Notes: a model not told the origin generated them from the letters alone. Numbered from the stretch's first letter, positions 2,991 to 63,830 are shown. The stretch is 64,000 nucleotides of DNA from an uncultured Nitrososphaeraceae archaeon (GCA_963765895.1 CAVXZB010000025.1:1-64000); one strand, 5' to 3'. Numbers and translations are program-made.

Positions 2991-3182
2991 TCCAAGGCTC
3001 TTTTTAGAAAGACTAGTGCGATACTACTTTTGAATATATACTACAGTAACATAGAGTAACACCATCTTAATCTCAATTTAGTAAGATTATTTTGCGTGCA
3101 CCATTTTTCTAAGGCTTTAATAATGTAATTGTTAAAAAAGAAACTTTTGACAATACTTATAACAGTAATTGCATCTGCCGTA

Positions 3183-9107: not shown

Positions 9108-11784
9108 ATGAATGCTAAGGGTATGTTAGCAAACGATAGAGATAAATGTTTCCAAGACAAAGGAACTGACTCTAGTTTTATTAACACAGCAATCATAAAT
9201 CAAATGCTTGGATTACCAGAAGGAGAGTTCTGGAAGCTCGTTTCGATCCGTCTGAATGTGCCACAATCCAAAGCAAATCAGAAAGAATTAGAAGATGAAC
9301 ATCGCGAATATTGGTCTTGGAATTATCTGATAGAAGAGATCTTCCTGCATATTGCTTCATTAAAGGTTTTAGTTGCTCACAATGATAGGCAAATTACCAT
9401 TTACAAGTACTATAGTCAAGCTCTGCGTCTTAAAAAATGGATTCCTATAGCAAAGCCGCCAGTTGAATTTGTCATCAACGCATCAGACCTAACTGCAAGA
9501 ATATTAGCCGAACTTAAGGCATTAGGACAGGAAGAATCGCAACAGGTACTAAAATTAGCAGTCTGTACAAATTTTCGAAAATATTGTTGGTCCAAGGTAT
9601 ACTCATGGTAGTATAGTTCGAAATCTCAGTGTGAGGTTAGATGGATAATGGCAGTTGCAGCGTATCCAAGGTACTCTAGTTTCTGAGGCAAAGAAGATTA
9701 AGTCTGGACAGATAACAGTTACCGGAATCATAAGCTCTCTTTCGACTCAATACTGGGTAATATCTGATTCAAAGTGGGAATGCAATAATCCTAATTGTAA
9801 CCAAGTTGGTAGCCAGAATTATATACCGCCTCGTATGCTCCCACCAAAACGTCTGGACAATACCTCGGGTACCGAATTAAAGTGCTTTGAATGTCACAGC
9901 ACCGCGTTTACTGTCAGCCACGAATACCATACAGCCAAGACTATTCAAGTCCTTGATGCTGATAATAACCATAATGAAAATTACGATTCACTTGAAATAG
10001 TGTTATATGATGAATCATGGAGTCATGCATTTGCTGGAGAGATTGTAGACATAACAGGCGAGCTTTACGTCCAGCCAAAGACACAAAGCGTAATCAATGG
10101 CAACGGGAAGAAACTTGTCAGTGTTTTACATAGTAGTACGCTTGATTCAAAACATAGAGAAGAGATAACAATCACTTCTAAGGATATTGAAATATTTAAG
10201 AGACATAAGGCAATATGTGAAAGGACTTATCAAAATGAACTTGATGCCATAAAATGTAATCCAGAACTAGCAAAAAAGATCAAACCAATGCGATATATCG
10301 ATAGAGTAGTTGCGATGTTTGCACCCAATGTAATCGGCTATGATGACAAGAAATTAGGATTATTAAGATCCATAGTTGGCGCTAGATCGGATCATGGAAC
10401 TGATAATGGAAGGCGTGGAAGAATAAACACGTTACTGGTTGGTGAGCCTGGGACAGCAAAAAGCACATTGGCAAGGGAGGCTAGCCTTTTGTTACCTAAT
10501 TCTAGATACGTAACGGCTCAAAATGCTAGTGGCAAAAGTCTCATTGCAATCGTTGACAAGGAAAATGATAGTTTGATATGCAGATACGGAGTGGTAGTAC
10601 TAGCCAAAGGAGCAGTATGTGCGATAAATGAAATTGGCGCTATGAATCCCACTGATCAACAATTCTTACTCGATATTGCTGAGGAAGGTAGGTGTACTGT
10701 CAGACAAGTACGGGACGCATTTCGAGATAGATGCACCCACGACTATTATAGCAACGGCAAATCCATATAACCAAACTTGGAACAAAAGCTTTAACATAAG
10801 TAAAGATGAAATACCTATACTCAAACCACTTCTTGATAGATGTGACCAGGTATACGGGTTTATGGATGCCACGTCAGAAAAAGAAATTGATGAATATGTC
10901 ATACAGAAAACTAAGATAAGAAACAGGCCGCCACATAATAGTAATTTCCTGAGGAAATTTAATGTCTTTGCAAAAACTATTCAGCCCATTATGGCTGCCG
11001 GTGTGGACGACAGACTAAATCAATTTTGGAAGAATGGCAGGATTCAAGGAGTGGCCACGAACAGGACATATGACTCGATATTTAGGATTGCTCAAGCTCA
11101 AGCTCGACTTAATCTCAGTGATGAAGTTACAGATGATATCGCTACTCAAGCAATGGATTCGATAAGCCTGATGTTATCGCAGTATGGCAAAGTTGTGCAG
11201 ACAATACAAAGCCCCCGGAACGTTACATATGACATGTTTGTAAATGTCTTAAAACAGACCAAAAGTGGGATATTAATTACACAACTATGTAGGATAGCAT
11301 GCGAGGAAAACAAACAAGTATCTGAATATGTAGGCGAAAAATGGGATGTCCAACATAATCGTAAGTTAAGAACTGTAATTAAGATGCTTCTAAACCACAC
11401 AAAAATAAAACTGATAAAGGCTAAGCCTCTGGTTTTACAATACTTTGACGAGGTAACATCTGACGCATATGACATATATGACACAACTATCAAGGCCAGT
11501 CAAAATAATGTGGCACAGTCCACAACTGACCTATCTGACATATATGACCGGCAGCGACTGACACCAATAAATTGGCCGAAGCTACGATTAATGAACAAAA
11601 TAATTGGCCATCTGACCCATATGACATATCTGACACAACTACAGACCTGCAGTTTAACTCAGAGCAGGAATCACGCAATATCTTCAGACTTGGAAGATCT
11701 GATACTTGGGCTTGTGAACGGTGTAGACAGAAAGGTGATATACACTACATGAATGTACATTTGTGTAAGGGAGAGGCAAAATAA
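9108..11784 (+). CDS. Divergent MCM-family AAA+ helicase of a mobile element (split into 4 ORFs)
   Basis: Zn motif CNNPNC..CFEC, MFAPNVIG, Walker A GEPGTAKS, Walker B CAINEIGAM, IIATANP, Arg finger LLDRCD, RIAQAQARL, and a C-terminal CERC..H..HLC finger. 9108..9611 may be a separate gene. Confidence 0.85.
11461..11636 (+). repeat. Three iteron-like triplets of TGAC at 9-bp period inside the MCM 3' end
   Basis: TGACGCATATGACATATATGACAC (11461), TGACCTATCTGACATATATGAC (11527), TGACCCATATGACATATCTGACAC (11613). Confidence 0.8.
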
Positions 11785-12701: not shown

Positions 12702-12875
12702 GTCATATTGGTCATATATGTCAGATGATTGAAATACACAGGCATTCACTGCTATTCAAAATTTATCACAAATGGAGTGTCATATATGTCAGATGTGTCA
12801 GATAGAGATTCAACAGAAGATATCGTAGGTGTGAAACTAGCAGTAACGAAAATATCAGATAAGCCATATAGGTCA
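12702..12875 (-). repeat. Three iteron-like triplets, same motif as 11461-11636 but inverted
   Basis: GTCA at 9-bp period starting at 12702, 12779 and 12854 (the last degenerate). Confidence 0.75.
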
Positions 12876-13033
12876 GATAGTTCTTACTTCTGGTGAGATA
12901 TAAAGATAGGAATATTAAATTGTACAGTGTGTACAAAGTTATATCATTTACAGGTAGATCGGCAACATAGAAGCATCAAGGAACTTGATTAATGGAGTTA
13001 AATTCTAGGTTAGGAATTTAGTATTTACCTTCC

Positions 13034-13294
13034 AAATTGATATCGCTGGATAATAGCAATTAGTCGATGTGAATCAACATACTAATTCCGTTAATATGCA
13101 ATACGTTTAACACATCCGGATAACACCGGATTATTAACACATTCGGCATAATCATCCCAGGAATAGGATTATAATAAGATAGGAGCAATGCCAGATTATA
13201 AATACTATCTAAAATGCTGCGTCCTAGGTGTAGACTGATATCATAGGATAGTAATATAATTTATGTATGCTGATCATGAGGCGCGTACTAAATG
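13034..13294 (+). repeat. Dispersed non-coding repeat R, copy 1
   Basis: Contains TGCCAGATTATAAATACTATCTAAAATGCTGCGTCCTAGGTGTAGACTGA ... TTTATGTATGCTG ... GAGGCGCG, shared with the other copies. Confidence 0.9.
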
Positions 13295-13363
13295 CCTTAC
13301 GAAGTGGTCTCTCCACTGTCATCAGTGTCATTTATCGATAGTCTACCAGCAGACAAACATGCC

Positions 13364-18118: not shown

Positions 18119-18311
18119 CTAATTTTTGCGAGTACACCAAAAAGCTAAAAGAGCCAGCTACTTATCGAAGAATTGGGGGCCACACATAGGAACACCTGCC
18201 CACAATAAGCCCTCTACTGAAACTTTATGGTCTGATTATAAGTTTTGGGTATTTTCCTTACTAATTTATATAATATTTCTTAAGCAGACTGTCTAGTAAT
18301 ACCTCAGTATC

Positions 18312-19263
18312 GGCTATGTAGAAAACATCATCAATATTACAAGATTAGTCAGTCTATGCATATTGTAGGTGATACATCTAAATGATAACTCTCTGTTCTG
18401 CATTCTAGTCAATCTAGACATAAGATTCTCTCCAAATAGTCGTTTTATAACTGATATTATGGTTTCATCTTTGTTTCGTTGATTGTACAGCAATTTGGAG
18501 TAACCACGCTTCATCTGCTTTCTGTACTTACCATGTGTTCTCCACATCGGTACATGTTCATATCGAGCAGGAATAATACTGAATGCATGTAAGTCCTCTC
18601 TTACGAGAAGGTGATTATCTTCACTATCGTAACCCTTATCAGCTGTAACTACAGATAATGGAAGAATATTTGATGTCCTTGTTATAATTGGCCTGAAATC
18701 TACATTATCATGCCTTGTTGGAGCTCGTCTTATCTTAATTGTACATATGATTTGTTGTAATACATCTACTCCAATAGATAATTTCGCATATTTTCTTCTC
18801 AATTCTGTTCGATCAGTATAATATTGTGATGCATGAGTTATCTTAAATCCTGTTGAATCTATTCCTGCAAAGATATGCTTGGTACCACTAATTACAATGA
18901 ATGACGAAATTATCTTTTCAAGCAATGAATTATTAATTCTATCTATCTGTAAACTTTTGCAATGTTGTAAAATGAGGAATACGTGACAACCGTAGAAATG
19001 ACCTTAGGTAATAGGCTTCAATTAACCACTCGACAAACATTCTATAACTCTTACCTTCATACTGTCGTATAGCAACTAGAACTATGTGCTGCCATATTGT
19101 AAATATGTGATTACTTTTCCTGTTAGAAAATAGAGGAATCCTTGCATGCTTCAAAACACGGAACATAGTACCTGCAAGTCTGACGTACATTGATTCTTTC
19201 AATAGACTATTGGTATTATACTCTTACAAAGCTTTGACTGTATGAGATGGTTTCTACACAGCC
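18312..19263 (-). mobile_element. IS5-like insertion sequence, 952 bp
   Basis: 18-bp TIRs GGCTATGTAGAAAACATC and GATGGTTTCTACACAGCC (16/18 match). 8-bp TSD TCAGTATC at 18304-18311 and 19264-19271. Confidence 0.92.
18314..19202 (-). CDS. IS5-like DDE transposase, frameshifted by a 4-bp ATAG duplication near 18940
   Basis: IPHFTTLQKF, GIDSTG, TADKGYDSE and YNQRNKDETIISVIKR motifs. Confidence 0.9.
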
Positions 19264-19475: not shown

Positions 19476-19762
19476 TTCTACTGAAATATCGTCTGATTCC
19501 GATGCTTCCCCCTTTCAAACTTTCATCATCGTTGAGTGTTAGGCTCGGCGGGACCATCCACGAGTTCTTCTTAGACATTACTAAGCTGAATTGTACCAAT
19601 AGTGGAGTAAATACTCGGAAGTATCAAATATTGAGATACTATTTCCGCAGGTATTCCTAAATCTTTGATAAGACGATTGATATCCGTAATATTCAAGCTA
19701 TTAACAATGCAGTGCCGCTTCCTGACAATAATAAATATACGAGATGATGTGAATAGGATTTT

Positions 19763-21259: not shown

Positions 21260-21360
21260 TCACTTTTCAGAATCTAAAATTCCTGTTTTGTTGATATCCT
21301 CTTCTATAACGACCTTATGAGAGGCCTGAGAATAGGGCAAGCCATACCAAGAGCATTATA

Positions 21361-21972
21361 TTGATAAAGCAAGATGTTCGCAACGGGGAACCGGAAACTA
21401 TGCCATTAGAAAGTTTCCCGGTGAGTTCCCCGTCTGAAAATGGTCCAATTCACGCTCAATTTGAGCACAAACTGGGAACCGGGAAACTCGGGGACTTGCC
21501 TTCATCTGTGGCAGGTGAAAATGAAAATGAAGTGGCATCATCTAATGGGCTAGAAGTACCGGTAAGTTCCCCGACTTTCCAGAGTTCCCGTTCTGGCGAA
21601 AATCACGCTCAATTCGCTAGCGATACAAACGGGAACCTGGCGGGGAAGTCGACGGGGTACGCGAGTTCATGTTCCCCATTACACCACGCTTCGTTATCAA
21701 GTACAAACAGCGAGGCAGCCAAAGTCATCTCTGTAACCGACTTCTTTTATGATGATCCAACTATGCCTTACGTAGCGCTACCAGACCATGAATTGGACCA
21801 GAGCCCATGTTGTCATATTATATCTATAAAGGATGGATACTATTACTGTAGGTTGCATCCTGAAATAAAGAACGTACATCTGGAATCCATAGAGCACCAC
21901 ATCAAGCACAAAGATCCAGCGACGCATAAATCAGAGTTATTAAAATTGTCCAAACTTACTCATAACAGCTGA
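21361..21972 (+). pseudogene. 3' remnant of a replication-type protein: iteron-coded low-complexity linker plus Cys/His Zn-finger-like tail
   Basis: GGGAAC/GTTCCC clusters at 21384-21676. Tail YYYCRLHPEIKNVHLESIEHHIKHKDP is duplicated at 27077-27340 and degenerate near 63420. Confidence 0.55.
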
Positions 21973-22111
21973 GATCCTATTGATAGGTAAAAATATCAGG
22001 ATTTGATGAACTTAATATCTTCGACTTTCCAAATCGATGGATTAGGGCTAGCCCTTACAGAAAACCACAATGAGTTCATCTTGTTATACTGTGATGAAAG
22101 AGCTCACAATC

Positions 22112-23132
22112 TTATAGCCGACCGATCAATTGCATGAGTCGCGTCTGCTCATCATCATCATCACCATCATCATCATCACCATCATCATCATCACCATCAT
22201 CACCTGCACCTGTTGTGTGCACTAGCGATACCATTAGCTCGTCAAGTCCCGCCGCCAGAAGTTCGGTAAGCCGAGCAACCACTATTGATTCATTTCCAGA
22301 AATAACCAAGCTATCTACAAGAGCATCGGGTACCGCCTGGTCTGATGTCAATGAAAAACCTGCATTAGAGAACATGGCAGCATAGAAAGGGATCTTAGCA
22401 TAAAAGTCAAGCATTTGATGTCCTGCGGCTAGGACAGCATGCCGATCTTCGGTAACTGCTACCGGTACATATGCCACCAATGGAGGCGGTGATCGTCCAA
22501 CTGCAGCTGCTGATGTACGTAAAGCTGGAATTCCAGTATTAAGCAGATACGGAACAGGACATACCCATGTAAGGGCTCCATCGGCAATTTGTCCAGCTAA
22601 TTGAAATGCTGATTTTCCTAGCGTTGAAATAAGTATGGGAATCTGCGACGTGCGGGGTAATGTGGCTTTAACGTTAAAGAAGTGTCCATGATGATCGACC
22701 TTCCCATGCCAGAGTGCAGCACGCAGGTACTTCCAGATATTCGCGCAGATGGGCTAACGGCGTTTTCTGTTGCAGACCATAAATATCTTCTATAATAAAG
22801 CGGTGACTGGGGCCTATTCCAAGACGCAATCGACCAGGTGCAAGATCGTATAAAGCTAGAAGCTCCTGAGCTAGGACCAAGGGATGACGTGGATAGGTTG
22901 GTGTGATCGAGGTTCCTAGGCGTACTGTAGATGTTCTTGTTGCTGCAGCTGCAAACATCGTTAATACATCTGGCCAAACAGGTGGTTGGGCCATCCATAT
23001 CTGTCGCACTCCGGCAGCTTCTGCTGCAACAATAGTTTTGACCGCAATCGCCGCGTTAGAACCATGTACAATGAGTCCGACGCGTTCTCGTGTCGGCGGA
23101 AGACTTGAAACTTGAAGACTCTGATCCTCCAT
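22112..23132 (-). CDS. LLM-class flavin-dependent oxidoreductase (frameshifted)
   Basis: AEAAGVRQIW, AAAATRTSTVRLGTSI..TYPRHP, GRLRLGIG and AGLDE motifs. Confidence 0.85.
22150..22203 (+). repeat. 15-bp tandem repeat (ATCATCATCATCACC)n encoding a GDDDD tract
   Basis: About 3.5 units visible directly. Confidence 0.85.
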
Positions 23133-23423
23133 TAAAGATTCACCTCGAAGTGTAACCGTTTATTCTCTCAGGGTAGGATATCATGCTGAAGTTTCATTCA
23201 AAATCTACTATTTCAACTTTTAAACAGTACAGTTCGGTTTAACTGGTTTGATAGGTGGCGTAATTTAATGCAACTAGATTTTGGTTCTAACTACGTCAGG
23301 ACGAATAGATTCCTCTAGTTAATCTTAGATGATAGATTGGTAGCAACTGTAGTAAATGACCATGAGTAATTTGAAGTCATTGATGAGCCATCTGTAGCTT
23401 TAACTATGGCCGTATCGACCCAT

Positions 23424-23686
23424 CAAATTGATAATATCTATAGATAGTAGCAGTTAGCAGATTTGAGTCAGCTTATTAGTTCTGTTAATATCCAAATTTA
23501 TAATAAATTGGACAATGTCGGATTCATATGAAGTACAGCAAAATCATACCGGAAAAGCTGGCATTCAATACAGATATGCGGCGTGCCAGATTATAAATAC
23601 TTCTAAAAAAGACAGATCAGATGTATAGATCTGTGCCTCTGGGTCAAGACAAAAAATTTATGTACATTTGTCTAGAGGCGCGCGCC
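23424..23686 (+). repeat. Repeat R, copy 2 (diverged)
   Basis: ATATCTATAGATAGTAGCA, GTGCCAGATTATAAATAC, AAATTTATGTA and GAGGCGCGCGCC in the same order and similar spacing. Confidence 0.8.
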
Positions 23687-24320
23687 TACCACACCAAAAA
23701 GTAAAAAGGAAAGTTAGGATAATAATAATAAAGAGGTGGCTAAGTTACGGTTACGGTCATAACTGCTCCCATTGAAGCACTGTTAGTGATAACGCTGCCC
23801 TACTTTATAGCAGCCATCGCAACGATCATTTATACAAATAAAGAAACCAGAAAAGCAAAAGCAATCACGATATCAATAACAGTAAAGACATAGTCAACGA
23901 TAACAATGATGACCAAATATTACTGCACAGACTTGGAAAAAGCCATAGATTATGATGATATTCGGTACTATAAGCTAGAAGACGATAAGTTTAATGCAGT
24001 CAAAAAGCCTGGTTGGTATATACGTGTAATTTTTCCAAATTAAGAGATCAAATGTATAGATGATGGGCCAGGTATAACGATAAAAAGTAGATACATGTCT
24101 ATCATGAGGCGTGCCAAATAAATGTTGTAAAGATAACAATTCTTTAGTGGAGCGCCCGGCCCATTTCATTCAGTTTACGACGTCTTTTGCGATCATGTTT
24201 CTATGATGTTGGAGAATTGGTGGTGGATCTGCTGTTCAGACATTTTTCAGCAATTTATCTGAAGACTTGGCAGAACCTAGCAGAGGAATATTGAAATAAT
24301 TTGGATATCCCACTATAAGA

Positions 24321-24916
24321 ATGAGTACATTAAGACATAATCAATCTGTATTTGTATCAGGTCTTCTGGTTCTTATCATCGTTATGTTATACAATTATTC
24401 AACAAATATTGACACATTAGTGGTAATATCGGTCTCGGACCATCAAGCCAATGCAGCAAATAATTCTATAGATCAGATTATAAAGCAAAGGAACATTACT
24501 TCAAACCAATCATCTGATCTAAGAGACATTAGAAAGCTAACCTCAGAAGAAGTTCAGCTCCTTAGGGAGCTAGGCCAAGGATTTAACAGAACGACCACAC
24601 AGAGTCAATTTGCAGCTTTAGGTATCTTCCTTTTAGGCATTTCCTTGATTATTTATGGATTAAGATTAACTGTGAAGGCAACAGACAAACAAACAAGCAG
24701 GTATTTAAAGCCATGATATGGGCATTAATTGTCCCTGTTGTTTCACTTATTGGGATTTATCAAATTGGAATATTGTTGGGGAGCCCCATACTTCTTTATA
24801 AATTGAACGAGCCATTTTTCTTCGTATCTCTCCTACTCTTAATTCCCGCAGTTATAATCATAATCCTGTTACTAGCTGAGAAGAAATTGGTAGGTAGTTT
24901 ACATCGAAAGGATTAA
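24321..24916 (+). CDS. Membrane protein (frameshifted)
   Basis: Overlapping ORFs with about 4 hydrophobic segments. Confidence 0.6.
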
Positions 24917-25162
24917 CAACATCAATCAACCCGAATAGAAATACATGTTGCAATAATGACACGATAATGCGTAGCAAGATATTGATACAAATATTCTGCT
25001 AAGCGACTGCCGGAACGCGCATCATGTGGTTTACTTTACCTCTTGTTATTTGTGCAGCGAATTGTAAAGGATTACTTCTATGGTGCCTTAAAGCAAATCT
25101 ATATCACGAGTCGAGTTTAGTGATAGTAATGAGCCACTTATCAAAATTGTTTAAATCGTAGA

Positions 25163-25447
25163 TTGGCTATTTTTAGTATAATGGAAAGTCAGGGCAGCAG
25201 TTGCGATTCTCGTATCCATGCGTATAAGAATGGCAAAACAATGGAGCAGTGTAGACAGGAAGCGAGAAAAACTACAGAGTTACTATCAGAGGAAATTTCG
25301 AAGAATGGAGCAGTATCATGGAAAAGAGTATTAGAAATAACAGACTATGATGAACTAGTCTATAAATTAACTTTAAAGTATCTTCGACAAAAAGGGTGCG
25401 ATATTGGCAATAACACTATTCCACGTGTAAAAAACAGCAAATTATAA
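25163..25447 (+). CDS. Hypothetical protein
   Basis: 94-aa ORF, probable start at MESQG. Confidence 0.55.
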   Translation: MAIFSIMESQGSSCDSRIHAYKNGKTMEQCRQEARKTTELLSEEISKNGAVSWKRVLEITDYDELVYKLTLKYLRQKGCDIGNNTIPRVKNSKL

Positions 25448-25478
25448 ATTAATTAGATCTGATGGTTCATCTACCACT

Positions 25479-26237
25479 CTATCTAGATTTGTCGAAAGTA
25501 CGTGTACTAGGATAATGATTTTGTTGCTCATCTATGTAGGCATCTATTGTTGGTATCATCTTATGACTACTCCTTCTCTTATGTCTGACCATACATAAAC
25601 TAAATACAGTGACAGATCCAATTACAGACAAAACTATAATATTACCCAAATATGAAACAGGGTTAAATAACAGCTCATTATTTTTAGGTACAAGACCGAT
25701 GCTACTTCTTAGTGAATCTGATGAGTATCCTGTTATTGGGCCTTTCTGGACATTAATAAGGTATGGTTCACTCTTTATTTGTACAATTCCTTTGGATGAG
25801 GAAGATGGTAAGACATCCAACGTGGCAACTATTGCATATGGATTGGAGGCAGTTGCGGAATCATATTTATGATATAAAGGGCCCCATTTACCCTCACTAG
25901 ATGAAGGGATTCTAGCTATTTCGGACTGGCTAGTAGTTCCGTCGCCCCAGGATACGGTTAAAATTTTCTGTTCAACATTATTACTGCTAGTCTCTGCATT
26001 ATAGGTAGCAATACCTGCAACTGATACATGATCTATACCGGCTATGGGTGAAGTATTACCTACAAAAGCTATAGTTACATGAGGAGTAGCGGTAGTAGCA
26101 GTAGTACCCAATCTTGCTTGGGCATATAGTGTTGCTCCCGTCATTATTGCTATTAACACAAATATCATCATCACAAATACAACTAAGGTTAAAAGTAAAA
26201 TCAAATATGGAACACCCATATTCCTATGGGTCATCAT
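25479..26237 (-). CDS. Membrane-anchored protein with a PKD/Ig-like domain
   Basis: Signal helix, VSWGDGT..H.Y motif, and a C-terminal TM followed by a basic stretch. Confidence 0.6.
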   Translation of the reverse strand: MMTHRNMGVPYLILLLTLVVFVMMIFVLIAIMTGATLYAQARLGTTATTATPHVTIAFVGNTSPIAGIDHVSVAGIATYNAETSSNNVEQKILTVSWGDGTTSQSEIARIPSSSEGKWGPLYHKYDSATASNPYAIVATLDVLPSSSSKGIVQIKSEPYLINVQKGPITGYSSDSLRSSIGLVPKNNELLFNPVSYLGNIIVLSVIGSVTVFSLCMVRHKRRSSHKMIPTIDAYIDEQQNHYPSTRTFDKSR

Positions 26238-26509
26238 TAACTACTACCAACAGCACATGTAGCCATAACTGCATTGAATTGTGCTGCTCCGTCTTTATAG
26301 TAGCCTAGTTGTTCATACTTTAATGCATTATCCTTACATATATCACCAAAACTCGGTTGGGATGAGAATTTAGCATTCATAGTAGGAAATCCTATAATAC
26401 TAATCAGCGGAATGAGAACTGCGATCGCTGCAACTCCCACGAACATTAGTGTCAACACCAGCTGTTGTTCTTTTCTCTTCCTGTTACCAGATAGTAACGT
26501 TGTACTCAA
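26237..26509 (-). CDS. Small membrane-anchored protein
   Basis: TM helix and two Cys. Abuts the next gene. Confidence 0.55.
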   Translation of the reverse strand: MSTTLLSGNRKRKEQQLVLTLMFVGVAAIAVLIPLISIIGFPTMNAKFSSQPSFGDICKDNALKYEQLGYYKDGAAQFNAVMATCAVGSS

Positions 26510-26702
26510 TTAAATTTAACTCCGAGTGACGATTTCTGCGATAGGGTTCCAAGCTCAGATATGTATTGCTTCATGTCTTACTTTATTTGTCTGATTCACT
26601 TATATCCTCATGTGACTCACTTGATACTTATAACAAGAGATTAGTATTAGTAATATCTACGGTTGTGTAGAAACTTATTCCCAAAGTTCAACAAGTCTTT
26701 CG

Positions 26703-26935
26703 CGCATTCTAGCGCCTTACCTTATCAATATTAGAAAATGCTCTGATGATGAGGCTACCAATATAATTAGAAATTGGCTTGACAGATGTCGAAATCTGAG
26801 GCAATTGACTTTACTCCGAATTACATAATCAAATATAATATCAATTCTGCAAAGATGGGTGGATATCTACCAATAAGTCTAGAAAAACTAAAGATAGAAA
26901 ATATGTACTTGTATAGTTTGTTGACTAAATCATAG
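26703..26935 (+). pseudogene. PriX-like primase C-terminal domain remnant
   Basis: Manual translation across one indel gives RILAPYLINIRKCSDDEATNIIRNWLDRC..L(D)FTPNYIIKYNINSAKMGGYLPISLEKLKIENMYLYSLLTKS*. Confidence 0.7.
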
Positions 26936-27076
26936 ACTTCCATAGTCTAAATTCAATTAGATTATATCGGGCATTCAATCAAAGCAGGAATAATTTATCC
27001 GACCCGCTCTGGTTCATGTTCCCCCGTTACACGACGTTTTACCAAGTGGTATAGGACGCTAGAATCAGCTCGAGAG

Positions 27077-27309
27077 CCGACTTCTTTTATGATGATCCAA
27101 CTATGCCTTACGCAGCACTACCAGACCATAAATTAGACCAGAGCCTATGCTGCCCTATTATAACAATGAAGGATAGATACTATTACTGTAGGTTGCATCC
27201 TGAAATAAAGAACGTACATCTGGAATCCATAGAGCATCATATCAAGTATAAAGATCCAGCGACGCATAAATCAGAGTTATTAAGATTGTCCAAACTTACT
27301 CATAACTAG
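27077..27309 (+). pseudogene. Second copy of the Zn-finger-like tail
   Basis: Near-identical DNA to 21737-21970. Confidence 0.8.
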
Positions 27310-27310
27310 T

Positions 27311-27624
27311 GGATCCTATTCATAGGTAAAATTATCAGGAATTGTGGACCTAGCAGGAATTGCCTATTCTATGGACTGACATCCATAGATAGTAGCATAC
27401 TAGTCAATGTGAATCAAATTCTGTTAATAGATAATATCACACACATCGGACAATATCGGATTTTTTAATACGTCCAACATAATTATACCGGAAATAGCGT
27501 TATAATAAGATAGGAGTGGTGCCAGATTATAAATATTATCAAATGCTGCGTCCTATGTGTAGACCGACGTCCCAGGATAGTGATAAAATTTATGTGTGCT
27601 GTATATTATGAGGCGCGCTAAATG
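27311..27624 (+). repeat. Repeat R, copy 3 (longest form)
   Basis: Runs from GATCCTATTCATAGGTAAAATTATCAGG to TTATGAGGCGCGCTAAATG. Confidence 0.9.
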
Positions 27625-27812
27625 ATTCGCTCTATAGATAAGAATTATGTTGGAAAAGCTTGTAAATTTGACTTGAGGCTAGCGCAGATCTGAATGTATT
27701 ACCATCAAATAGGATATTCCTAGCAAATCCAACCATAGGAAAGAGCGTCGAGAGTTATTTCATTTAATCATGGATGGATGATAACGAGTTATTTTCAACT
27801 TGATTTCTTAGA

Positions 27813-29463
27813 TTAATCAAGGCCTGTTCTCGCTGCCTGTTCTCCTGCCGAGGAAGTAGGGGATGCTGTTTCTTGATCATTATTATTGGCAGTAGTTAAT
27901 GTGGTTGCTGATGATGAACATCCTAAACTGGTTTCTATGGCTGTTGCTTGTTGTCTTAAGTCTGCAGCTTGGTGTGATGTTAATCGTCCATTAGCCTCAT
28001 CTGCATTAACCTGATGTAAGAAGGCATTCAATGTGTTACAGGCAGCTACACCATTATTGCGATTCAATTGACTTAGTGCAGTATTTAATGGAGCTTCCAA
28101 GCTTGTTGTAGTGCCCTTTGGAAGATGCATATGCTCTATTGTGTTTATAATATTCTGTACTGCTTGCTGTGGTGTAATTATAGTCCAGGTAAAGGTAGCA
28201 GGTGTAGGATCTTTATTTCCTTGAGTATCTACTGCTCTTACCTTAAATGTATGCTGCTGTCCCGCTGCCAAGTTGTTATAGCTAACTGTAGTGGGGTTAG
28301 TATTAGTATCACATGTAGAGAATTGGCTTGAATCTGAACTACATTCAAAGCCTGCTATAGGATTGCCGCCTGGAGTAGCTGAAACCTGGAATGTAATAGA
28401 CGTTGAAACTGTTGAACCACTATTTTGAACTGGGTTGTTGTTTCCATCGATAGCAGAAGTTATTAGAGTATTTGGAGGAGCCAGAGGTGTAGTAGATATC
28501 ACGGAAACAGTATTTCCTGGTGCCTCATTTGAATGAAAATTGGTCACATAAACATTATGGTGTACTGGGTCATATACTGGAGTGACTGGTCCTGAACCCA
28601 CAGTAACAGTACCTATAACTTGATTACTGGAACCATCAATTAATGAAACATAATTAGATCCTTGATTACCCACATAAATAATACCATTATCTGCGTCAAA
28701 TCCAACACCTGTCGGATCCGGACCTACGGTAATTGTTTTAGTCACGCTATTTGTAGAACTGTCTATAACAGAGACAAACTGGGTATCATGATTTGCCGCA
28801 TATATGTTACCGCTGGCCGAGTCATATGTAAGAAATACAGGGTTTGGTACATTTGTTACAGTAGCTCACCACAGATTCTAGACGCTCCGTCTATTACCGA
28901 GGTGGGTCCAGAACCTGTATTAGGAATGTATGTAAGCCCGTTGCCTGGGTTAAAGACTCCTTGTAGTGGTTGTCCTCCAACTGTTATGGTATCAATTACG
29001 CTCTGGTTGCTCCATCTATTACTGAAACAGTTCCACTGCCTGCATTAGTCTGCATATATGTAGTCATTAACAGGGTCATAAATCACGCCATCTACTATCG
29101 AGCCATTGCTTTGTATAGTGCCAATTACATTGTTAGTTGCTGCATCTATTACGGATAACGTATTTGAAAAAACATTAGCTGTATAGATGTAATTACGCTT
29201 TGTATCAACAGCAAGTTCACGTGGAGTATAATTATTTGGTAGGTGAATAGTTGCAAGTAACGCTATTAGATACATGTATCAATTACAGACACTGTACTTG
29301 AAGCAATATCTGCAGTATACACATGACCAGTAATTGGATTAAAAAGCGCGCCATAAGGACCAGTACCTACTGTTATTGTAGCAACTACAGAATCTGCATG
29401 CACAATAGAAGACACCAAGGGTGCAATTGCCGATATAATGGTAGCTAATACACATAAAATCAT
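27813..29463 (-). CDS. Secreted YVTN/YncE beta-propeller with an FN3-like domain and a helical C-terminal domain (frameshifted)
   Basis: Signal peptide, repeats VATITVG.GP...IYV.N..SNTVSVID, and HTFKVRAVDTQGNKDPTPA. Confidence 0.85.
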
Positions 29464-30435
29464 AGCAACAGTTGGCGCTTTTAGGCACCATAGTCAAAAG
29501 AAAACTTACGATAATGTATTTAACATAAAGGTAGCACCATTATATAAAATTCCAGATTAAATATGTGTTAATCACAATTATTGATAAGAACTTACATGAT
29601 TGAAGTAACGACTAATTCTCTGATTTATCTTCGTATACGAGATCAATGCGATTTATGCGTCTTACCTATGATGTGGAACATCTTTTCATGATGTCCCACA
29701 ATGTGATGCCCTCATTAGTAATCCCATATAACATTTTATTATACAAATGAATATCATCCATTAATCTCAATCGGTCTTTGGTCGTGTGAATTCAAAAATT
29801 AGGGAGACTTAGAGAATACTTGAGGGAATGAAAGTGTATTGAAACCTTAGGTAATAGCATTGACACTTGGGACGCTTGGGACACTTACTGGACTTGCGAA
29901 GGCGGTCATGATCTATAGAAAGATTGGTTTCCAAAGACCTGCCATAAATTATCTATTTCACGATTTCACAAGACGGCGCAAAGATGAAAAGCTCGAACAA
30001 TATAAGTGACCGAAAAGGGCGACGGACTCAAACCGCAAATCGATTTTTGGTCAATTCGGATATCATACTGATTTCAACCTAGTTGAATGAGATCTACAGT
30101 AGATAGCAGATATCAAGCAAAAATCCAGTTATTATCAGTTATGGTTTACAAGTTAAGTTTCTGATCCCCATTGCTATAATGAAGTCTGATGCTGTTTTTA
30201 GATAACTTTCAGTAATATCATCATGCTATTAATTCCTACGGTGATTCTCTTGAAGCACACACAGCATTATTATTTTTTCCATAGTTTACTCTGTAAAACA
30301 ATGCTGAGATAGAACAGTAAAGGCTCACACAGTTATGACTACTTTGCTACTTGGATGTACATCTTTCAGGTAGTCTAGCGCCCTAGTAAGTTAATCCAGC
30401 GAGAAGGTGTTTTCTAAATTCACTTTTATATAACT

Positions 30436-30745
30436 TTAATCTACCCATTGTACCAATTTAAGTTGGCTATTATCTTCTAAACTTTTAATTGTTGCTCCTT
30501 TCCTATAATCGAAGAATTTCTCAAGCTGCTTATATACATAGCCATCAAGTAACTTTCCTACAGGACTATATGGAATTTCAAAGTCAACCTCATCTATTAT
30601 TTCAGTTTGCTTTTGATCCTCATTGATACAAATATCATCGAATTTGTGTAAGTGCCTCCACTTTTTAATGGGCCGGTTAACATTTCATCTAAATATTGAT
30701 ATGGTTTTATGGATCTTATTATTGAGTGCCATCTTCTCTTGAAAA
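30436..30745 (-). pseudogene. SRPBCC-family fragment
   Basis: WHSIIRSIKPYQYLDEMLTGP..WRHLHKF...TEIIDEVDFEIPYSPVGKLL...LEKFFDYR read across a frameshift. Confidence 0.6.
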
Positions 30746-30759
30746 TCATTAACTTACCC

Positions 30760-31180
30760 TCAAGTTGTCGTTCCTGCAATAAATAGTAATCATGTATATG
30801 TTTATGATTTAAATGTTCATGAGAAGCACCCCATCCTCCAATACCACCAGTATATTCTCCAGTAACCTCTAAAACGTCTTCAGAATCAGATATTTCTTCG
30901 AGCATCTCTAGTGTTAATTTTTGATTTGTTACATAATGAATGCCATTGTCATATATTGCAGGTATCATTCCGTCTTATTAAATATGAAATCCTTAGCTTT
31001 TTGAGAATCAATTCCTTCTTTGGTAAAGACTTCTAGTATAGACTGGTATGACTAGAGGATTTTCTCGATGACGAATTGGTAGATCACTTATAAGGTCTGC
31101 ATCAACTTCGGAAGAGATTCTTCATACTTGTTTTGCAATTTAGACAATTTTGGATATAACTCTCCTACGTTGTATTGCCC
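30760..31180 (-). pseudogene. Hypothetical protein fragment
   Basis: GMIPAIYDNGIHYVTNQKLTLEMLEEISDSEDVLEVTGEYTG with broken upstream frames. Confidence 0.45.
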
Positions 31181-33938: not shown

Positions 33939-33964
33939 ACATGAGCGCATACATCAAGCAGTAT

Positions 33965-34099
33965 ATCATACGATACCGGATTTTTCATCAATTCGGGATA
34001 ATTATATCGGAAAAAGCGTTATAATAAGATATGAAAAGTGCCAGATTATTAATATTATCAAAAATGCTGAGTCCTATGTGTAGACTGACGTCCCAGGAC
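33965..34099 (+). repeat. Repeat R, copy 4 (truncated at both ends)
   Basis: CGTTATAATAAGAT..GTGCCAGATTATTAATATTATCAAAAATGCTGAGTCCTATGTGTAGACTGACGTCCCAGGA. Confidence 0.85.
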
Positions 34100-41556: not shown

Positions 41557-41617
41557 CTGCTGTGGCCTAGGTATAGAGACTGACGTCCCAGGATGGCGAT
41601 ATACAATTATGTGTACC
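41557..41617 (+). repeat. Repeat R internal fragment
   Basis: TGCTGTGGCCTAGGTATAGAGACTGACGTCCCAGGATGGCGATATACAATTATGTGT matches the R core. Confidence 0.75.
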
Positions 41618-42272
41618 TCACTCACGCCATGTCTCATTTGTGCACGATAATATCCTTTACTACCCTTTATAGGCATAAAATTTGTAGTGATAATCAACAT
41701 ATCTCCTTTACGCGGTTTTAAAACAATTGCTTTTGATTGTGCCCTTGGAATTTGCTGTGTTAATACAAATTCTCCACCAGTATAATCAACATCGGGCTCA
41801 TTTAGGAAGAACACCACTTGAAAAGGAAAAAATATAGCACCATATAGGTCTTGGTGCAATGTATTATGTCCTCCTTTACCATATTTAGAATAAGCACTGT
41901 AGGCTGCTTCTGATTATTTTCATGGCAAAGAGTTTTAAGATCATCAAATCTGTCTGGAAATTCTGTCTTCATGTTTAGCATCTTCATCCATGTATTTGCA
42001 ATAGGTGAAAGCTTTGGGTAAATCTCATGCCTGAGGATCTGAATTATTTCAGGCAAAGGATATTTGAAATATTTGTATTCGCCTAATCCAAAACGATACT
42101 TTTCCATCGTTATTGTCTTTCGATACAGATTGGAGTTATCATATTCGACAATAAGTTCATTGCAATTTTGAATCGGTAAAAATTGTGACACCGCGGTGTA
42201 TCCCTTTTCATCTAGGATTTCTGTTACAGCTTGCCAATCAATATTTGCAATTCTCTGCAGTAAATCATTCAT
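41610..42272 (-). pseudogene. 2OG-Fe(II) oxygenase (DUF2086-like), frameshifted and 3'-truncated
   Basis: FGLGEYKYF, HQDLYG, YTGGEFVL..Q.PRAQS and MRHGVSEVH, then sequence from repeat R. Confidence 0.8.
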
Positions 42273-49503: not shown

Positions 49504-49761
49504 AAAATTGATATCTATAGGTAGTAGCAATTAATGAATGTAAACCAATTGTTTAATTCAGTCAATCACTAGTAAGTTTTATCATATCGGATAACATCGG
49601 ATTTTTTAACATATCCGGCCTAACTATCTGGAAATAACGTTATAGTAAGATAGGTGGCATACCAGATTATAAATATTATCAAAAATGCTGCTTCCTAGGT
49701 GTAGACTAAGAACCCAGGATGATGAAAAATTTATGTATGCTGTCTATCTGCAGGCGCGCAC
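49504..49761 (+). repeat. Repeat R, copy 5
   Basis: AAATTGATATCTATAGGTAGTAGCAAT ... CCAGATTATAAATATTATCAAAAATGCTGCTTCCTAGGTGTAGACT ... CAGGCGCGCAC. Confidence 0.9.
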
Positions 49762-49886
49762 GCACCCCAAACGGGTTTAATGTGTCATCGATGATAATAA
49801 TAATAATAATATACAGTTCACTTCGAAGAGGGACACACATGCTTTTCTAATAAATAATACCAGATTTTATTGGAGCATTATGTTTT

Positions 49887-54081: not shown

Positions 54082-54450
54082 CTGGCTATTATTGGCCTTG
54101 CCTGCATATATTGATTACATTTAATGGAACACTGCTATTGTTAATAGTTACTTCTGTGTTGTCGCCATGTGAGTAATGCCTTCCACAAGAATTTTTTTCC
54201 CGATAATTTCTATAAGTCTAGGACATTTCTAACAGAAAGTGAACTAAAAGATAGTGATGACCGGACAAAGAAATTGTATTCAGACAATGACTAAATATGG
54301 TTTAGCATTCTGCTAAAATAGAGCAATGTTCAGCACCAGAATCATATTTTCTTGCTCAAGTATTTGGTGCGACTACTTATAGTATCCATGGATCAGAACA
54401 ATAATGACATCGCTAATGATTTCAGATGTAGGAGTTGTAAACTCATTACG

Positions 54451-54508
54451 AATTATTTGGTGCGCACCTCATGATAAACAGCATACATAAATTTTATAAT
54501 CATTCTCT
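54451..54508 (-). repeat. Repeat R terminal part, inverted
   Basis: Reverse complement reads AAAATTTATGTATGCTGTTTATCATGAGGTGCGCACCAAATAATT. Confidence 0.75.
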
Positions 54509-55833: not shown

Positions 55834-55839
55834 GAGTAA

Positions 55840-56547: not shown

Positions 56548-56552
56548 AGGAA

Positions 56553-60007: not shown

Positions 60008-60120
60008 ACACCCGGGATACCCGGGTTATTTCCAACCCTAGAGAAGAATTTGGATGTGTATATAAAATGTATGATAAGGAAATATTGTAACAGAATTCAA
60101 AACTATCCCGGGTAGCCTGT
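60008..60120 (+). repeat. CCCGGG inverted-repeat element, copy a
   Basis: ACACCCGGGATACCCGGG ... CCCGGGTAGCCTGT. The interior is homologous to the copies at 62792 and 63141. Confidence 0.8.
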
Positions 60121-60199: not shown

Positions 60200-60470
60200 T
60201 AATGCGCGTTTGTCTGTTGGTAGACTATCGATAAATGATAGCGATACACAGACGAGTCTACAGTACGGTGTTTGGAGCGCTATTTGTTGGTAGACATGCG
60301 GATAAATCTTTTATTGCGAGATGTCAATTTATACATTGGATGTAGCATTTTCCATAATATTTATAATCCCCCGTGTGGCACATTTATATTAGAAGTCACT
60401 TTTTCCGGAATACTTATCCCGGATCTGATGGAATTTCCGATATAATCTGATTTGGATTACAAGAGACAAT
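60200..60470 (-). repeat. Repeat R, inverted diverged copy plus downstream motif
   Basis: TAGCATTTTCCATAATATTTATAATC and TTCCGGAATACTTATCCCGGA match the reverse complement of R. 60200-60245 matches the reverse complement of 13320-13365. Confidence 0.7.
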
Positions 60471-60474
60471 TAAT

Positions 60475-60710
60475 TACATGACTTATCCAACACACTGTAC
60501 AGGTACGTATTTTCTTTCTTTAAGTTCTCCAAACTTATCGGTAAATAGCCCTTCTTCTTTGCAGAATTAATGTTATACCTGATCATATAATTAGGATCGA
60601 AGTCCAATTGCCTTAACGGATTGCATCTATCAAACCACTCTTTAATATATCAGAAGCCTCTTCTGGTGAATATTTTCTAATATTAATAAGGTAAGGTGCC
60701 AGAACACATT
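60475..60710 (-). pseudogene. Second PriX-like primase C-terminal remnant
   Basis: VLAPYLINIRKYSPEEASDI..EWFDRCNPLRQLDFDPNYMIRYNINSAKKKGYLPISLENLKKENTYLYSVLDK. Confidence 0.7.
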
Positions 60711-60896
60711 GCGAAAGGGGAAGGAATATAGATACTCAAATTAGATTTAATCCAGTTCACTGCAAAAATATTCTTTTATATCTGTAATTTCATATCGAGA
60801 GTTGACATTTTCCGAACTTGTTTCTTAAACCTGTAACCTTAGTCATGAAACATTTTAAAAGAAATAGGTTATGCTCAATTACGAGCATAATTACGA

Positions 60897-63140: not shown

Positions 63141-63263
63141 ACACCCGGGATACCCGGGATAATCTTGTATTCTGATGGTCCTCTATATTCCCTCTTGTAC
63201 TGTACTTTTAATATATCTTGAACTCTTCCTTAGGTAGGAAAATAACCCGGGTATCCCGGGTGT
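63141..63263 (-). repeat. CCCGGG inverted-repeat element, copy c (perfect 18-bp IR)
   Basis: ACACCCGGGATACCCGGG and CCCGGGTATCCCGGGTGT. The interior is reversed relative to copies a and b. Confidence 0.9.
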
Positions 63264-63541
63264 GATGACTTTTTTTATCCAATTCTACAACGGATCTTAT
63301 GATTACACACCAAACCTCTACAACAATTACGTATTCTTGACTTCAATGCTGAAGGGCATGGGCATTTGCTCAGGCAATGTTATACAATAACTGCATAAGG
63401 GCAGGAACATCTACCTAGCAATTACATCCTGAATTAGGGAGCGTACATCTCGAATCAAAAGAGCTTCCCATCAATACAAGGATCCGACTGTGCATAGACT
63501 AGAGTTATTATTAAAGTCCCCAAACTGATTCACGACTATTT
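63264..63541 (+). pseudogene. Third, degenerate Zn-finger-like tail
   Basis: GATGACTTTTTTTAT (DDFFY) and TTACATCCTGAATTAGGGAGCGTACATCTCGAATC (LHPELGSVHLES) match 21737-21970. Confidence 0.65.
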
Positions 63542-63830
63542 GATTCTATTGATAGGTAAAACTATCAGACTTAGTGAATTTTCCAGAATTGCCTATTCCA
63601 TAGACTGATATCTATAGATAGTAGCAACTAGTCGATACAAATCAACATACTAATTCCGTTAATATGCAATAAGTTTAACACATTGGACAACATCGGATTT
63701 TTAACACATCCGGCATAATTATCCCGAAAATAACGTTATAATACAGATATGAGAGATGCCAGATTATAAGTATTATCAAAAATGCTGCATGCTACGTGTA
63801 GGTATACTGATTATGAGGCGCGCACCAAAT
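63542..63830 (+). repeat. Repeat R, copy 6
   Basis: GATTCTATTGATAGGTAAAACTATCAG ... TGCCAGATTATAAGTATTATCAAAAATGCTG ... TTATGAGGCGCGCACCAAAT. Confidence 0.9.

What the first reader, a model, noticed from the sequence alone, without database searches (positions are those of the whole stretch)
26640..27624. Recurrent architecture: PriX-like primase tail, iterons, Zn-finger tail, then repeat R
Seen: 26703-26935 (PriX-like), 27011-27025 (GTTCATGTTCCCC, as at 21665), 27077-27309 (Zn-finger tail) and R copy 3 lie in series. Sub-blocks recur elsewhere. 21361-22000 has iterons, the same tail and the first ~28 bp of R. 63141-63830 has CCCGGG iterons, a degenerate tail and R. 60710 to 60300 on - has a PriX-like tail then R. 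12702-13294 has iterons, a CTVC..H..H remnant and R, just behind the MCM. Established: thaumarchaeal integrated elements are reported to carry MCM helicases and primases. Inference: at least five eroded members of one element family sit within 55 kb. They preferentially keep the R-proximal end and differ in helicase and iteron type, as in a modular replicon with a shared terminus.
Basis: partly seen in the sequence, partly recalled or inferred. Interest (0 to 1): 0.82.

Follow-up and report, generated by a model that had tools for sequence, protein, structure and literature searches.

The report
Decayed integrated replicons sharing one terminus
This part of a soil ammonia-oxidising archaeon's genome is a graveyard of small integrated plasmid-like elements, whose broken primase and helicase genes are each followed by the same roughly 300-base non-coding end piece that occurs about a hundred times in the genome.

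Summary
At 26634-27637 lie, in series: the last ~85 codons of an AEP/PriX primase (two frames); ~50 nt of the spacer that normally follows that primase; one GTTCCC repeat; the last 84 codons of a ~788-aa helicase-like protein (the 'Zn-finger tail', open as a 68-aa ORF); a 60-nt linker L; and a full copy of repeat R. R is a real ~270-nt family. It has 102 profile hits in this 4.9-Mb genome, 9 of them in the window. It was found in 7 of 7 genomes of the genus and in 0 of 34 genomes from 33 other genera.

The tail-to-R link is far beyond chance: 28 of 36 tail copies have R 15-122 nt downstream. Relatives show the whole layout. One element in a sister species reads integrase, 851-aa helicase-like ORF, intact primase, R', tail, L, R. 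Own-genome contig C75 has a near-full 788-aa-type gene followed by L and R. One R-bearing 2-kb insert sits at a tRNA 3' end between 12-nt direct repeats and is absent from a sister species.

What R does (promoter/control module, origin, or independently mobile unit) is not settled. Assembly indels mean that single frameshifts do not prove decay.

The parts
9649..11752 (+). MCM-type helicase gene, read in two overlapping frames (9649-10770, 10646-11752)
   Evidence: Pfam MCM 6.6e-23 and 3.3e-5, MCM_lid 1.8e-8. 78-80% identical paralogues on C59 and C26.
11457..11634 (-). Cluster of four GTCAGATR repeats inside the 3' part of the MCM gene
   Evidence: 8 of 11 window matches fall in this cluster and the one at 12720-12879, in opposite orientation.
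12720..12879 (+). Cluster of four GTCAGATR repeats upstream of R copy 1
13035..13297 (+). R copy (profile positions 6-271)
   Evidence: nhmmer E 3.8e-69. Downstream flank is unique.
21310..21972 (+). Last ~203-220 codons of a P0033-type (~788 aa) helicase-like gene: low-complexity linker plus Cys/His tail (P0001)
   Evidence: 71% identical to P0033 residues 572-788, open frame 220 aa. Translation.
21386..21676 (.). GTTCCC/GGGAAC repeat cluster (4 on +, 3 on -) within that coding linker
   Evidence: 7 of 18 window matches.
21973..22005 (+). First half of linker L, directly after the tail's stop codon. No R follows here.
23429..23692 (+). R copy (profile 5-270). A weak PriX-like remnant lies at about 23230-23330.
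   Evidence: nhmmer E 4.2e-29. The remnant 'NWFDRWRNLMQLDFGSNY' was read by eye and was not found by tblastn.
26634..26932 (+). C-terminal ~85 codons of an AEP/PriX primase, in two frames (26634-26825, 26783-26932)
   Evidence: tblastn to C7 primase E 7e-21 and 61-73% to the L027 primase. PriX E 0.037, sub-threshold.
26955..27001 (+). Remnant of the R' spacer that follows this primase type
   Evidence: 77% complementary to 60406-60452, which lies inside the R hit at 60454-60318. Colinear with L027.
27011..27076 (+). Last ~65 nt of the helicase linker, with one GTTCCC
   Evidence: Alignment with five paralogues..
27077..27309 (+). Cys/His tail of the P0033-type protein. Open as a 68-aa ORF, 27103-27309.
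   Evidence: 80% identical to P0033 residues 707-788. 45 homologues in all, none with a Pfam domain.
27310..27369 (+). Linker L
   Evidence: Conserved after the tail's stop codon in the paralogues.
27370..27637 (+). R copy 3, full length, with a BRE/TATA-like CCAGATTATAAATATTATC at 27522-27540
   Evidence: nhmmer E 8e-72, profile 2-281. Sequence.
33963..34098 (+). Partial R (profile 84-220)
41558..41618 (+). R fragment (profile 187-244)
   Evidence: E 1e-6.
49506..49768 (+). R copy (profile 6-270), preceded by a different ~450-nt repeated module
54447..54506 (-). R 3'-end fragment (profile 217-275)
   Evidence: Inverted pair I4.
60010..60113 (.). ACCCGGG repeat cluster
60318..60454 (-). Partial R (profile 83-216), 28 nt after the primase stop
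60473..60735 (-). PriX tail of a second primase remnant
   Evidence: tblastn E 4e-20. PriX E 0.018, sub-threshold.
63143..63261 (.). ACCCGGG repeat cluster upstream of a degenerate tail
   Evidence: A paralogous layout on C23 was seen.
63377..63568 (+). Degenerate Cys/His tail plus L
   Evidence: Tail profile positions 69-260, E 1e-21.
63599..63826 (+). R copy (profile 2-264, with an internal deletion)

Best explanation
The finding is one of at least seven stubs, in this window, of a family of small (about 7-10 kb) integrative, plasmid-like elements. They are 'cryptic integrated elements' of a soil ammonia-oxidising archaeal genus.

A whole element carries four things:
- a tyrosine integrase at one end;
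- a large helicase-like protein (MCM, the 788-aa P0033 type, or an 851-aa type), whose 3' coding end holds an array of short type-specific repeats and a Cys/His tail;
- a separate AEP primase with a PriX-like C-terminal domain;
- at the integrase-distal side, a shared non-coding module (linker L plus repeat R, about 330 nt) with a BRE/TATA-like box pointing away from the replication genes.

Shown here: the gene order in intact relatives; the identity of the tails; the tight tail-L-R and primase-R junctions; genus-wide spread; and site-specific insertion of one R-bearing segment at a tRNA 3' end.

Inferred: the elements enter by integrase-mediated recombination, pile up in islands, and lose their integrase-side genes by deletion and rearrangement, leaving R-side stubs. 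The type-specific repeat arrays are the initiator-binding (origin) sites. R is the family's common promoter/control cassette. It is placed after the last replication gene and, in some copies, in front of small ORFs or cargo genes.

The locus 26634-27637 is a truncated copy of a composite layout (primase, R', tail, L, R) that is colinear in a sister species.
For: R family:
- 102 nhmmer hits in the genome.
- Found in 7 of 41 related genomes, all 7 of the genus, and in 0 of 34 genomes from 33 other genera.
- The exact 21-nt core occurs in 82 metagenome contigs.

Junctions:
- 28 of 36 tail hits have R 15-122 nt downstream.
- Primase stop, then ~15-36 nt, then R from profile position ~52-83, at C7, C22, C25:60454, C32, C48:41944 and C25:65706.

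Whole layouts:
- L027: integrase (PF00589, 2e-10), 851-aa ORF, primase (PriX 1.6e-11), R' with a TATA box, 69-aa tail ORF, L, R.
- C22: integrase, helicase (61%), primase (72%), R 80-275.
- L028: integrase, primase, R.
- C75: P0033-type gene (72% over residues 142-788), then L and R.

Tail: P0033 and P0039 end in the same linker plus tail.

Colinearity: window P tail and tail-L-R against G002:C49. Primase-tail adjacency is also seen in G005:C6.

Repeat arrays, in both orientations, in the 3' part of all three helicase types.

Insertion: a 1.98-kb R-bearing insert between 12-nt direct repeats at a tRNA 3' end (Rfam tRNA, 32 bits). It is absent from G004, whose flanks are 91-95% identical.

Promoter reading:
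- TTATAAAT (at most 1 mismatch) in 70 of 97 distinct R hits.
- ORFs follow R in L027, in the C19 insert (73-aa ORF plus an Abhydrolase_1 protein, 1.3e-22) and in L070.

Known class: thaumarchaeal integrated elements with MCM, primpol or S3H genes, short att sites and tRNA targets (PMC6563490, passages read).
Against: - No integrase lies on the window's contig (0 of 21 PF00589 hits are on C25).
- No att direct repeat of 11 nt or more was found for L027, L028 or C22.
- R copies (102) far outnumber integrase hits (21) and C-terminal primase loci (13 counted).
- Of 80 metagenome loci holding 110 R hits, only 5 protein hits to integrase, primase or the small ORF o114 were found.
- In the C19 insert R lies at the tRNA-proximal end and faces inward, so R is not always terminal.
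- There is no transcript evidence for R.
- Most R copies are not followed by an ORF.
- Conservation is even along R (0.97-1.42 bits per 20-nt block) rather than peaked at the TATA box.
- 0 of 102 R hits lie within 3 kb of an ARAGORN-called tRNA, although only 27 tRNAs were called.
- Assembly indels blur which genes are really broken.
Confidence: 0.7

Rival explanations
1. R (with L) is a non-autonomous mobile unit in its own right. It would be a miniature element moved in trans by the elements' integrases or by a transposase, and it only often lands beside, or is carried by, the replicons.
For: Copy excess: 102 R hits against 21 integrase hits. The 37 full-length copies in metagenome contigs form 12 distinct loci, mostly with no replication gene within up to 9 kb. 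A 2-kb integrase-less R-bearing insert has att-like direct repeats. The right boundary is sharp, with unique downstream flanks.
Against: No terminal inverted repeats were seen. The 'CAAAT' I first took for a target duplication is part of the conserved sequence. Upstream homology usually runs on into L and tail remnants, even at the 'solo' L070 copy. No filled/empty pair for R alone was found among own-genome paralogues. The one insert with direct repeats is 2 kb long and carries genes.
Confidence: 0.13
2. R is the replication origin of the elements, like the essential non-coding region directly downstream of the replicase gene in plasmid pRN1.
For: R lies immediately after the last replication gene. 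It holds two direct repeats (TTAACACATCGGA / TTAACACATCCGG) and several short palindromes. pRN1's minimal replicon needs 166 bp downstream of orf904 (PMC4234260; I saw only the search listing and the start of the abstract).
Against: R is shared by three unrelated helicase types, whereas each type has its own repeat array elsewhere. That fits type-specific origins better. R' and R both occur in one element (L027). There is no experimental handle.
Confidence: 0.12
3. R encodes a small non-coding RNA, transcribed from its internal TATA box over the last ~70-90 nt.
For: There is a BRE/TATA-like box. Downstream lies a conserved ~85-nt segment. Sub-families with different downstream segments keep a common word pattern: TATAGAC, then TGATGAG or TGATAA, then TTCATGTGT or TTTATGTAT, then CATGGGCGCGC or CATGAGGCGCGC.
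Against: No Rfam family matches: 0 hits at gathering score, and the best hit has E 0.4. The fold is not unusual, z = -1.46, and 12 of 200 shuffles fold as well. RNAalifold gave no consensus structure on 30 copies. Single-sequence folds share no architecture.
Confidence: 0.05

Closest known systems
Cryptic integrated elements (CIE) of Thaumarchaeota (Krupovic et al. 2019, PMC6563490; passages read)
   Same: Tyrosine-integrase elements with MGE-type replication genes (MCM, primpol, S3H). Short att sites (median 17 bp, as short as 8). tRNA genes are frequent targets. Arrays form by re-use of a site.
   Different: Here the primase (AEP+PriX) and the helicase-like protein are separate genes. Two of the three helicase types have no Pfam or PDB sequence match. 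A ~330-nt non-coding module is shared across replicon types and present ~100 times per genome. That paper has 0 occurrences of 'MITE' and, in the passages I saw, no mention of such a module.
pRN1-type plasmids of Sulfolobales (PMC4234260, PMC3869888; search listing and abstract starts only)
   Same: A primase/helicase replication gene is followed directly by an essential non-coding region taken to be the origin.
   Different: pRN1 fuses primpol and SF3 helicase in one protein and is not integrative. R has not been tested as an origin, and it is shared by unrelated helicases.
MGE-encoded AEP primases with PriCT/PriX-like helical domains (Kazlauskas et al. 2018, PMC5862659; passages read)
   Same: An AEP domain with a fused helical domain related to PriX/PriL, encoded on integrated mobile elements.
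   Different: The domain here matches Pfam PriX itself (PF18689), not PriCT-1 or PriCT-2. The AEP half gets no Pfam hit at E below 0.1. This family was found in 40 of 61 genomes searched in the host family, often in several copies.
Solo LTRs, MITEs and other short non-coding relics of mobile elements (recalled general knowledge)
   Same: Many short, diverged, non-coding copies that outnumber the coding elements and cluster in islands.
   Different: No inverted or direct terminal repeats and no target duplications were seen. R occurs once per element end, not at both ends.

Membership tests
Thaumarchaeal cryptic integrated element (integrase-type iMGE) | Tyrosine recombinase gene in the element | tested here: inconclusive
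   Met in relatives L027, L028, L031 and own contig C22. Not met for any stub in the window: 0 of 21 PF00589 hits are on contig C25.
Thaumarchaeal cryptic integrated element (integrase-type iMGE) | Flanking att direct repeats, with the insertion absent from a related genome | tested here: inconclusive
   Met for one R-bearing 1.98-kb insert: 12-nt repeat at a tRNA 3' end, empty site in G004. Not found for L027, L028 or C22, nor for the window's stubs.
Thaumarchaeal cryptic integrated element (integrase-type iMGE) | MGE-type replication genes, and no virion or conjugation genes | tested here: met
   MCM, AEP/PriX primase and helicase-like ORFs. No capsid or conjugation family appeared among the Pfam hits.
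AEP primase with PriX-like domain | PriX (PF18689) match above the gathering score | tested here: met
   Paralogues and orthologues score 3e-12, 4e-11, 1.6e-11, 4e-10 and 1.7e-7. The window fragments themselves score only 0.037 and 0.018, so their membership rests on tblastn to those paralogues.
AEP primase with PriX-like domain | AEP catalytic domain | tested here: inconclusive
   No Pfam AEP family at E below 0.1 for the N-terminal halves. The motifs hhhDhD, GNGYH and PGTINSK in the C7 copy were read by eye. These motif names are recalled.
MCM helicase | MCM P-loop domain and AAA-lid | tested here: met
   PF00493 at 6.6e-23 and PF17855 at 1.8e-8 on 9649-11752, split over two frames.
SF3 / D5-like helicase (for the P0033-type protein) | Match to a D5/DUF5906/VapE-type NTPase domain by sequence or fold | tested here: inconclusive
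   Pfam: 0 families at E up to 1. PDB sequences: 0. Atlas feature search: clusters with DUF5906, VapE or Pox_D5 at 0.92-0.93. Foldseek on a poor model (pLDDT 57, core below 50): best hits are poxvirus D5/E5, but at E 0.28.
C2H2-type zinc finger (for the tail) | Invariant Cys2/His2 ligands and a zinc-finger fold | tested here: inconclusive
   H32 and H45 are invariant. C29 and H46 are at least 90% conserved. The first Cys is replaced in several homologues. There is no Pfam family. The AlphaFold model is unusable, pLDDT 48.7.
MITE | Terminal inverted repeats and target-site duplication | tested here: not met
   Neither was seen in alignments of the ends of 60+ copies.
Iteron-type origin | Clustered short repeats specific to the initiator type | tested here: met
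   GTTCCC, GTCAGATR, ACCCGGG and (in L027) GTGTCGCA clusters, in both orientations, each with a different helicase or tail type.
Iteron-type origin | Initiator binding and origin activity | not testable with these tools
   Needs binding or replication assays.
Known RNA families (Rfam 15) | Covariance-model match at the gathering score | tested here: not met
   0 matches in the window. The best hit in 27250-27750 is a fungal snoRNA model at E 0.4.

The most novel reading that the evidence does not exclude
R (with L) is a portable promoter-bearing cassette that the elements' integrases can move or leave behind on its own. On this reading a single soil archaeal genus has seeded about a hundred outward-firing promoters through its genomes. 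That would rewire neighbouring host genes and contribute to the unusual growth of these genomes to nearly 5 Mb. The helicase-embedded repeat arrays plus Cys/His tails would form a new self-recognising origin/initiator system written inside coding sequence.
Probability: 0.15. Interest if true: 0.75.

Novelty: new variant of a known kind. Interest (0 to 1): 0.5.

Why it matters
Mobile elements of ammonia-oxidising archaea are known from few genomes and almost no experiments. This locus and its relatives give three things.

First, a concrete, testable element plan: integrase, a helicase with built-in repeat array and Cys/His tail, a PriX-type primase, and a shared non-coding end.

Second, two large helicase-like protein families that current domain libraries do not recognise.

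Third, a genus-specific sequence tag (R) that marks where such elements have been. Such a tag could be used to map integration hot spots, to look for excised circles in soil DNA, and to ask whether element-derived promoters drive host genes.

It also warns that this assembly carries indel errors, so pseudogene counts taken from it are unsafe.

Tried and rejected
- RNA evidence: four runs were laid on window 20000-29900. The three RNA runs are contigs of related populations and cover neighbouring genes. Over 26620-27612 they give only one 42-nt match. No conclusion on transcription of R.
- RNA structure: RNAalifold on 30 full copies gave no structure on either strand. Single folds of 29 downstream segments share no architecture. 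z = -1.46. A C/D-box reading of the downstream segment was considered by eye and dropped, because the box order and the putative C box do not fit.
- Tail structure: AlphaFold pLDDT 48.7, so no fold search was made.
- P0033-type core: model pLDDT 57.3, and Foldseek found nothing at E <= 0.001.
- The search for related loci with P0033 in genome contigs confirmed no relative.
- The 21-nt R core gave 0 matches in viral contigs.
- Empty-site search among own-genome paralogues returned only duplicate contigs.
- Empty-site search for the solo R on C84 gave no clear pair.
- The search with window 24000-31000 found only mosaic matches and no syntenic orthologue.
- att search found no shared word of 11 nt or more between the ends of L027, L028 or C22.
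- The region upstream of the integrase genes has its own conserved TATA-like motif but no R similarity (nhmmer E >= 0.64).
- tRNA proximity: 0 of 102 R hits lie within 3 kb of an ARAGORN tRNA. Only 27 tRNAs were called, and the Rfam-confirmed one on C19 was missed.
- 'CAAAT' as a target-site duplication was rejected.
- The search of earlier findings returned nothing for this genome.
- Literature: searches found no description of this repeat or of MITE-like elements in ammonia-oxidising archaea. Supplements were not opened.

Full report
**Setting.** The window is the first 64 kb of a 67-kb contig (C25) of a 4.9-Mb, 88-contig genome, 88% complete. Long-ORF cover is low: 33% of C25 and 49% genome-wide lie in ORFs of 150 aa or more. 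Many genes read in two or three frames: aldehyde dehydrogenase, MCM, a luciferase-like oxygenase and a 2OG oxygenase. Even amoA is split over three frames within 550 nt. I therefore treat single frameshifts as possible assembly indels. Only truncations, in-frame stops and deep divergence count as decay.

**The observation.**
- 26634-26932 encodes, in two frames, the last ~85 residues of a primase.
- 27077-27309 is 89% identical over 254 nt to 21713-21966.
- A repeat follows.

A profile built from 18 copies finds 102 hits for this repeat (R, ~270 nt) in the genome, 9 of them in the window. R is in all 7 genomes of the genus and in none of 34 genomes from 33 other genera of the same family and order. 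Its 21-nt core occurs in 82 metagenome contigs and in no IMG/VR contig. R hits cluster: 72 of 102 have another within 10 kb (random mean 31.9, maximum 50 of 500). Downstream of R's right end (...GAGGCGCGCCAAAT) the flanks are unique. Upstream, homology usually continues.

**What the coding pieces are.** The primase tail has about 20 paralogous loci. Fuller copies are C7 (three frames) and C41 (two frames). Intact 350-400-aa orthologues were found in 40 of 61 genomes searched in the family (this tally includes one genome flagged unpublished, G054). These proteins hit Pfam PriX at 3e-12 to 1.7e-7. The window's own fragments are sub-threshold.

The 'Zn-finger tail' is a true tail. Of 45 homologues in 5.8 billion clustered proteins (23 short and 22 long), the long ones include P0033 (788 aa) and P0039 (786 aa). 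Both end in the same low-complexity linker plus Cys/His tail. The ORF at 21361-21972 (P0001) is the last 203 residues of such a protein, 71% identical to P0033 residues 572-788.

The P0033 core has no Pfam or PDB sequence match. A language-model search points to DUF5906, VapE or D5 helicases. A weak fold search puts poxvirus D5/E5 on top at E 0.28. These are leads only. The family was found in 31 of 61 genomes searched in the host family. The tail's zinc binding is untested: H32 and H45 are invariant, C29 and H46 nearly so, and the first Cys is not.

**The 'iterons'.** The short repeats are real clusters. At 21.4-21.7 kb they lie inside the coding linker of the P0033-type gene, and the frame is kept in homologues from other samples. 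The same pattern holds for the other two helicase types, which carry arrays of a type-specific short word, in both orientations, in or near the 3' part of the gene. GTCAGATR lies in the MCM 3' end and again 1 kb downstream, inverted. GTGTCGCA lies in the 851-aa ORF of L027. Copies in both orientations are hard to explain by coding alone. I read them as DNA-level binding sites, probably origins, that co-vary with the helicase. This is an inference.

**Junctions.** Two junctions recur.
- (A) Tail stop codon, then a ~60-nt linker L, then R from position 1: 28 of 36 tail hits.
- (B) Primase stop, then ~15-36 nt, then R from about position 52-83: six loci.

The window's 26634-27637 joins both. After the primase stop come ~50 nt of the type-B spacer (26955-27001). 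These are followed by the last GTTCCC unit of the linker, the tail, L and a full R.

**Whole elements.**
- In a sister species (L027): flanking host genes, tyrosine integrase, two small ORFs, an 851-aa helicase-like ORF ending in its own C-x2-C...H...HH tail, an intact 357-aa primase, R' (profile 75-187, with the TATA box), a 69-aa tail ORF, L, R, then host genes. It is colinear with the window's stub.
- Own contig C22: integrase, the same helicase type (61%), primase (72%), R 80-275. Its left host flank matches other genomes up to ~60 nt before the integrase start.
- C75: a P0033-type gene (one frameshift, one TGA) followed by L and R.
- The MCM type recurs with R on C59 and C26.

**Integration.** On C19 a 1.98-kb segment is absent from G004, whose flanks are 91-95% identical. 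It carries R, a 73-aa ORF and an alpha/beta hydrolase (Abhydrolase_1, 1.3e-22). It is bounded by a 12-nt direct repeat that overlaps the 3' end of a tRNA gene (Rfam tRNA, 32 bits). This is the signature of integrase-type insertion described for thaumarchaeal elements (PMC6563490). Here, however, R lies next to the tRNA and faces the cargo genes, so it is not always the far terminus.

**What R does.** R has a BRE/TATA-like CCAGATTATAAATATTATC, kept (TTATAAAT with at most 1 mismatch) in 70 of 97 distinct hits. Upstream of it lie two direct repeats and several palindromes. ORFs follow it in L027 (tail ORF), in the C19 insert and in L070. Most copies have no ORF behind them. Conservation is even along R. 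I found no sign of a structured RNA and no usable transcript data.

My best reading is a shared promoter/control cassette of the element family (about 0.4-0.45 within the overall model). Origin, independently mobile cassette and ncRNA are the rivals.

The excess of R over element genes, and 'solo' copies in metagenome contigs (12 distinct loci), keep the mobile-cassette idea alive. Against it, the 'solo' copy I read still has decayed L and tail sequence upstream, and there are no terminal repeats or target duplications.

**Verdict.** The locus is a stub of a modular integrative replicon family, a new variant of the known thaumarchaeal cryptic integrated elements. Three points are not in the literature I could search:
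- the genus-wide non-coding module R;
- helicase genes with embedded type-specific repeat arrays and Cys/His tails;
- two large helicase-like families unknown to Pfam.

Noticed in passing
window 18309-19263: A ~955-bp insertion sequence (Pfam DDE_Tnp_1, 7.5e-14) with about 35 further copies at 98.6% identity or more across the genome, plus older copies at ~80-86%. It interrupts a segment that is contiguous in the 98%-identical duplicates on C59 and C26.
   Followed up: partly
G000:C24:168102-168652 (outside the window): The only amoA locus found reads in three frames within 550 nt. This points to indel errors in the assembly (or a broken key gene), so frameshifted genes in this genome are unsafe as evidence of decay.
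   Followed up: partly
window 22112-23159 (-): A luciferase-like monooxygenase is split over two frames. DNA and RNA contigs of related populations lack one base at 22726, exactly in the frame overlap.
   Followed up: no
window 1-6915: 99.1% identical to C88:175501-182416 and 96.7% identical to C43:26899-33809. This is either a large recent duplication or strain redundancy in the assembly.
   Followed up: no
window 55838-56933: Three tandem small ORFs share a 68-nt start region (81% and 72% identical) that encodes a signal-peptide-like N-terminus (family D7).
   Followed up: no
G000:C41:110706-111811 (L011/L015): One primase/PriX copy has 68-80% identical intact orthologues (363-404 aa) across several genera of the family. 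It may be a conserved chromosomal gene rather than an element gene. In this assembly it reads in two frames.
   Followed up: partly
window 19757-21259 and G000:C64:135222-136628: A patatin-like phospholipase gene lies next to a tail-L-R stub in both places. Paralogues at 77-85% identity lie on C61, C12, C38 and C84. It may be a recurrent cargo gene.
   Followed up: no
window 25431-26657: A repeated module with two minus-strand ORFs (253 and 90 aa, no Pfam family). Its matches in six genomes all end at the same point, about 40 nt before the primase tail. RNA contigs of related populations cover it.
   Followed up: no
G000:C64:125700-132472 (L040 3701-10472): A different, apparently intact element: integrase (400 aa), a 670-aa Prim-Pol protein (PF09250, 4.2e-9) and small ORFs, with no R of its own.
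   Followed up: no
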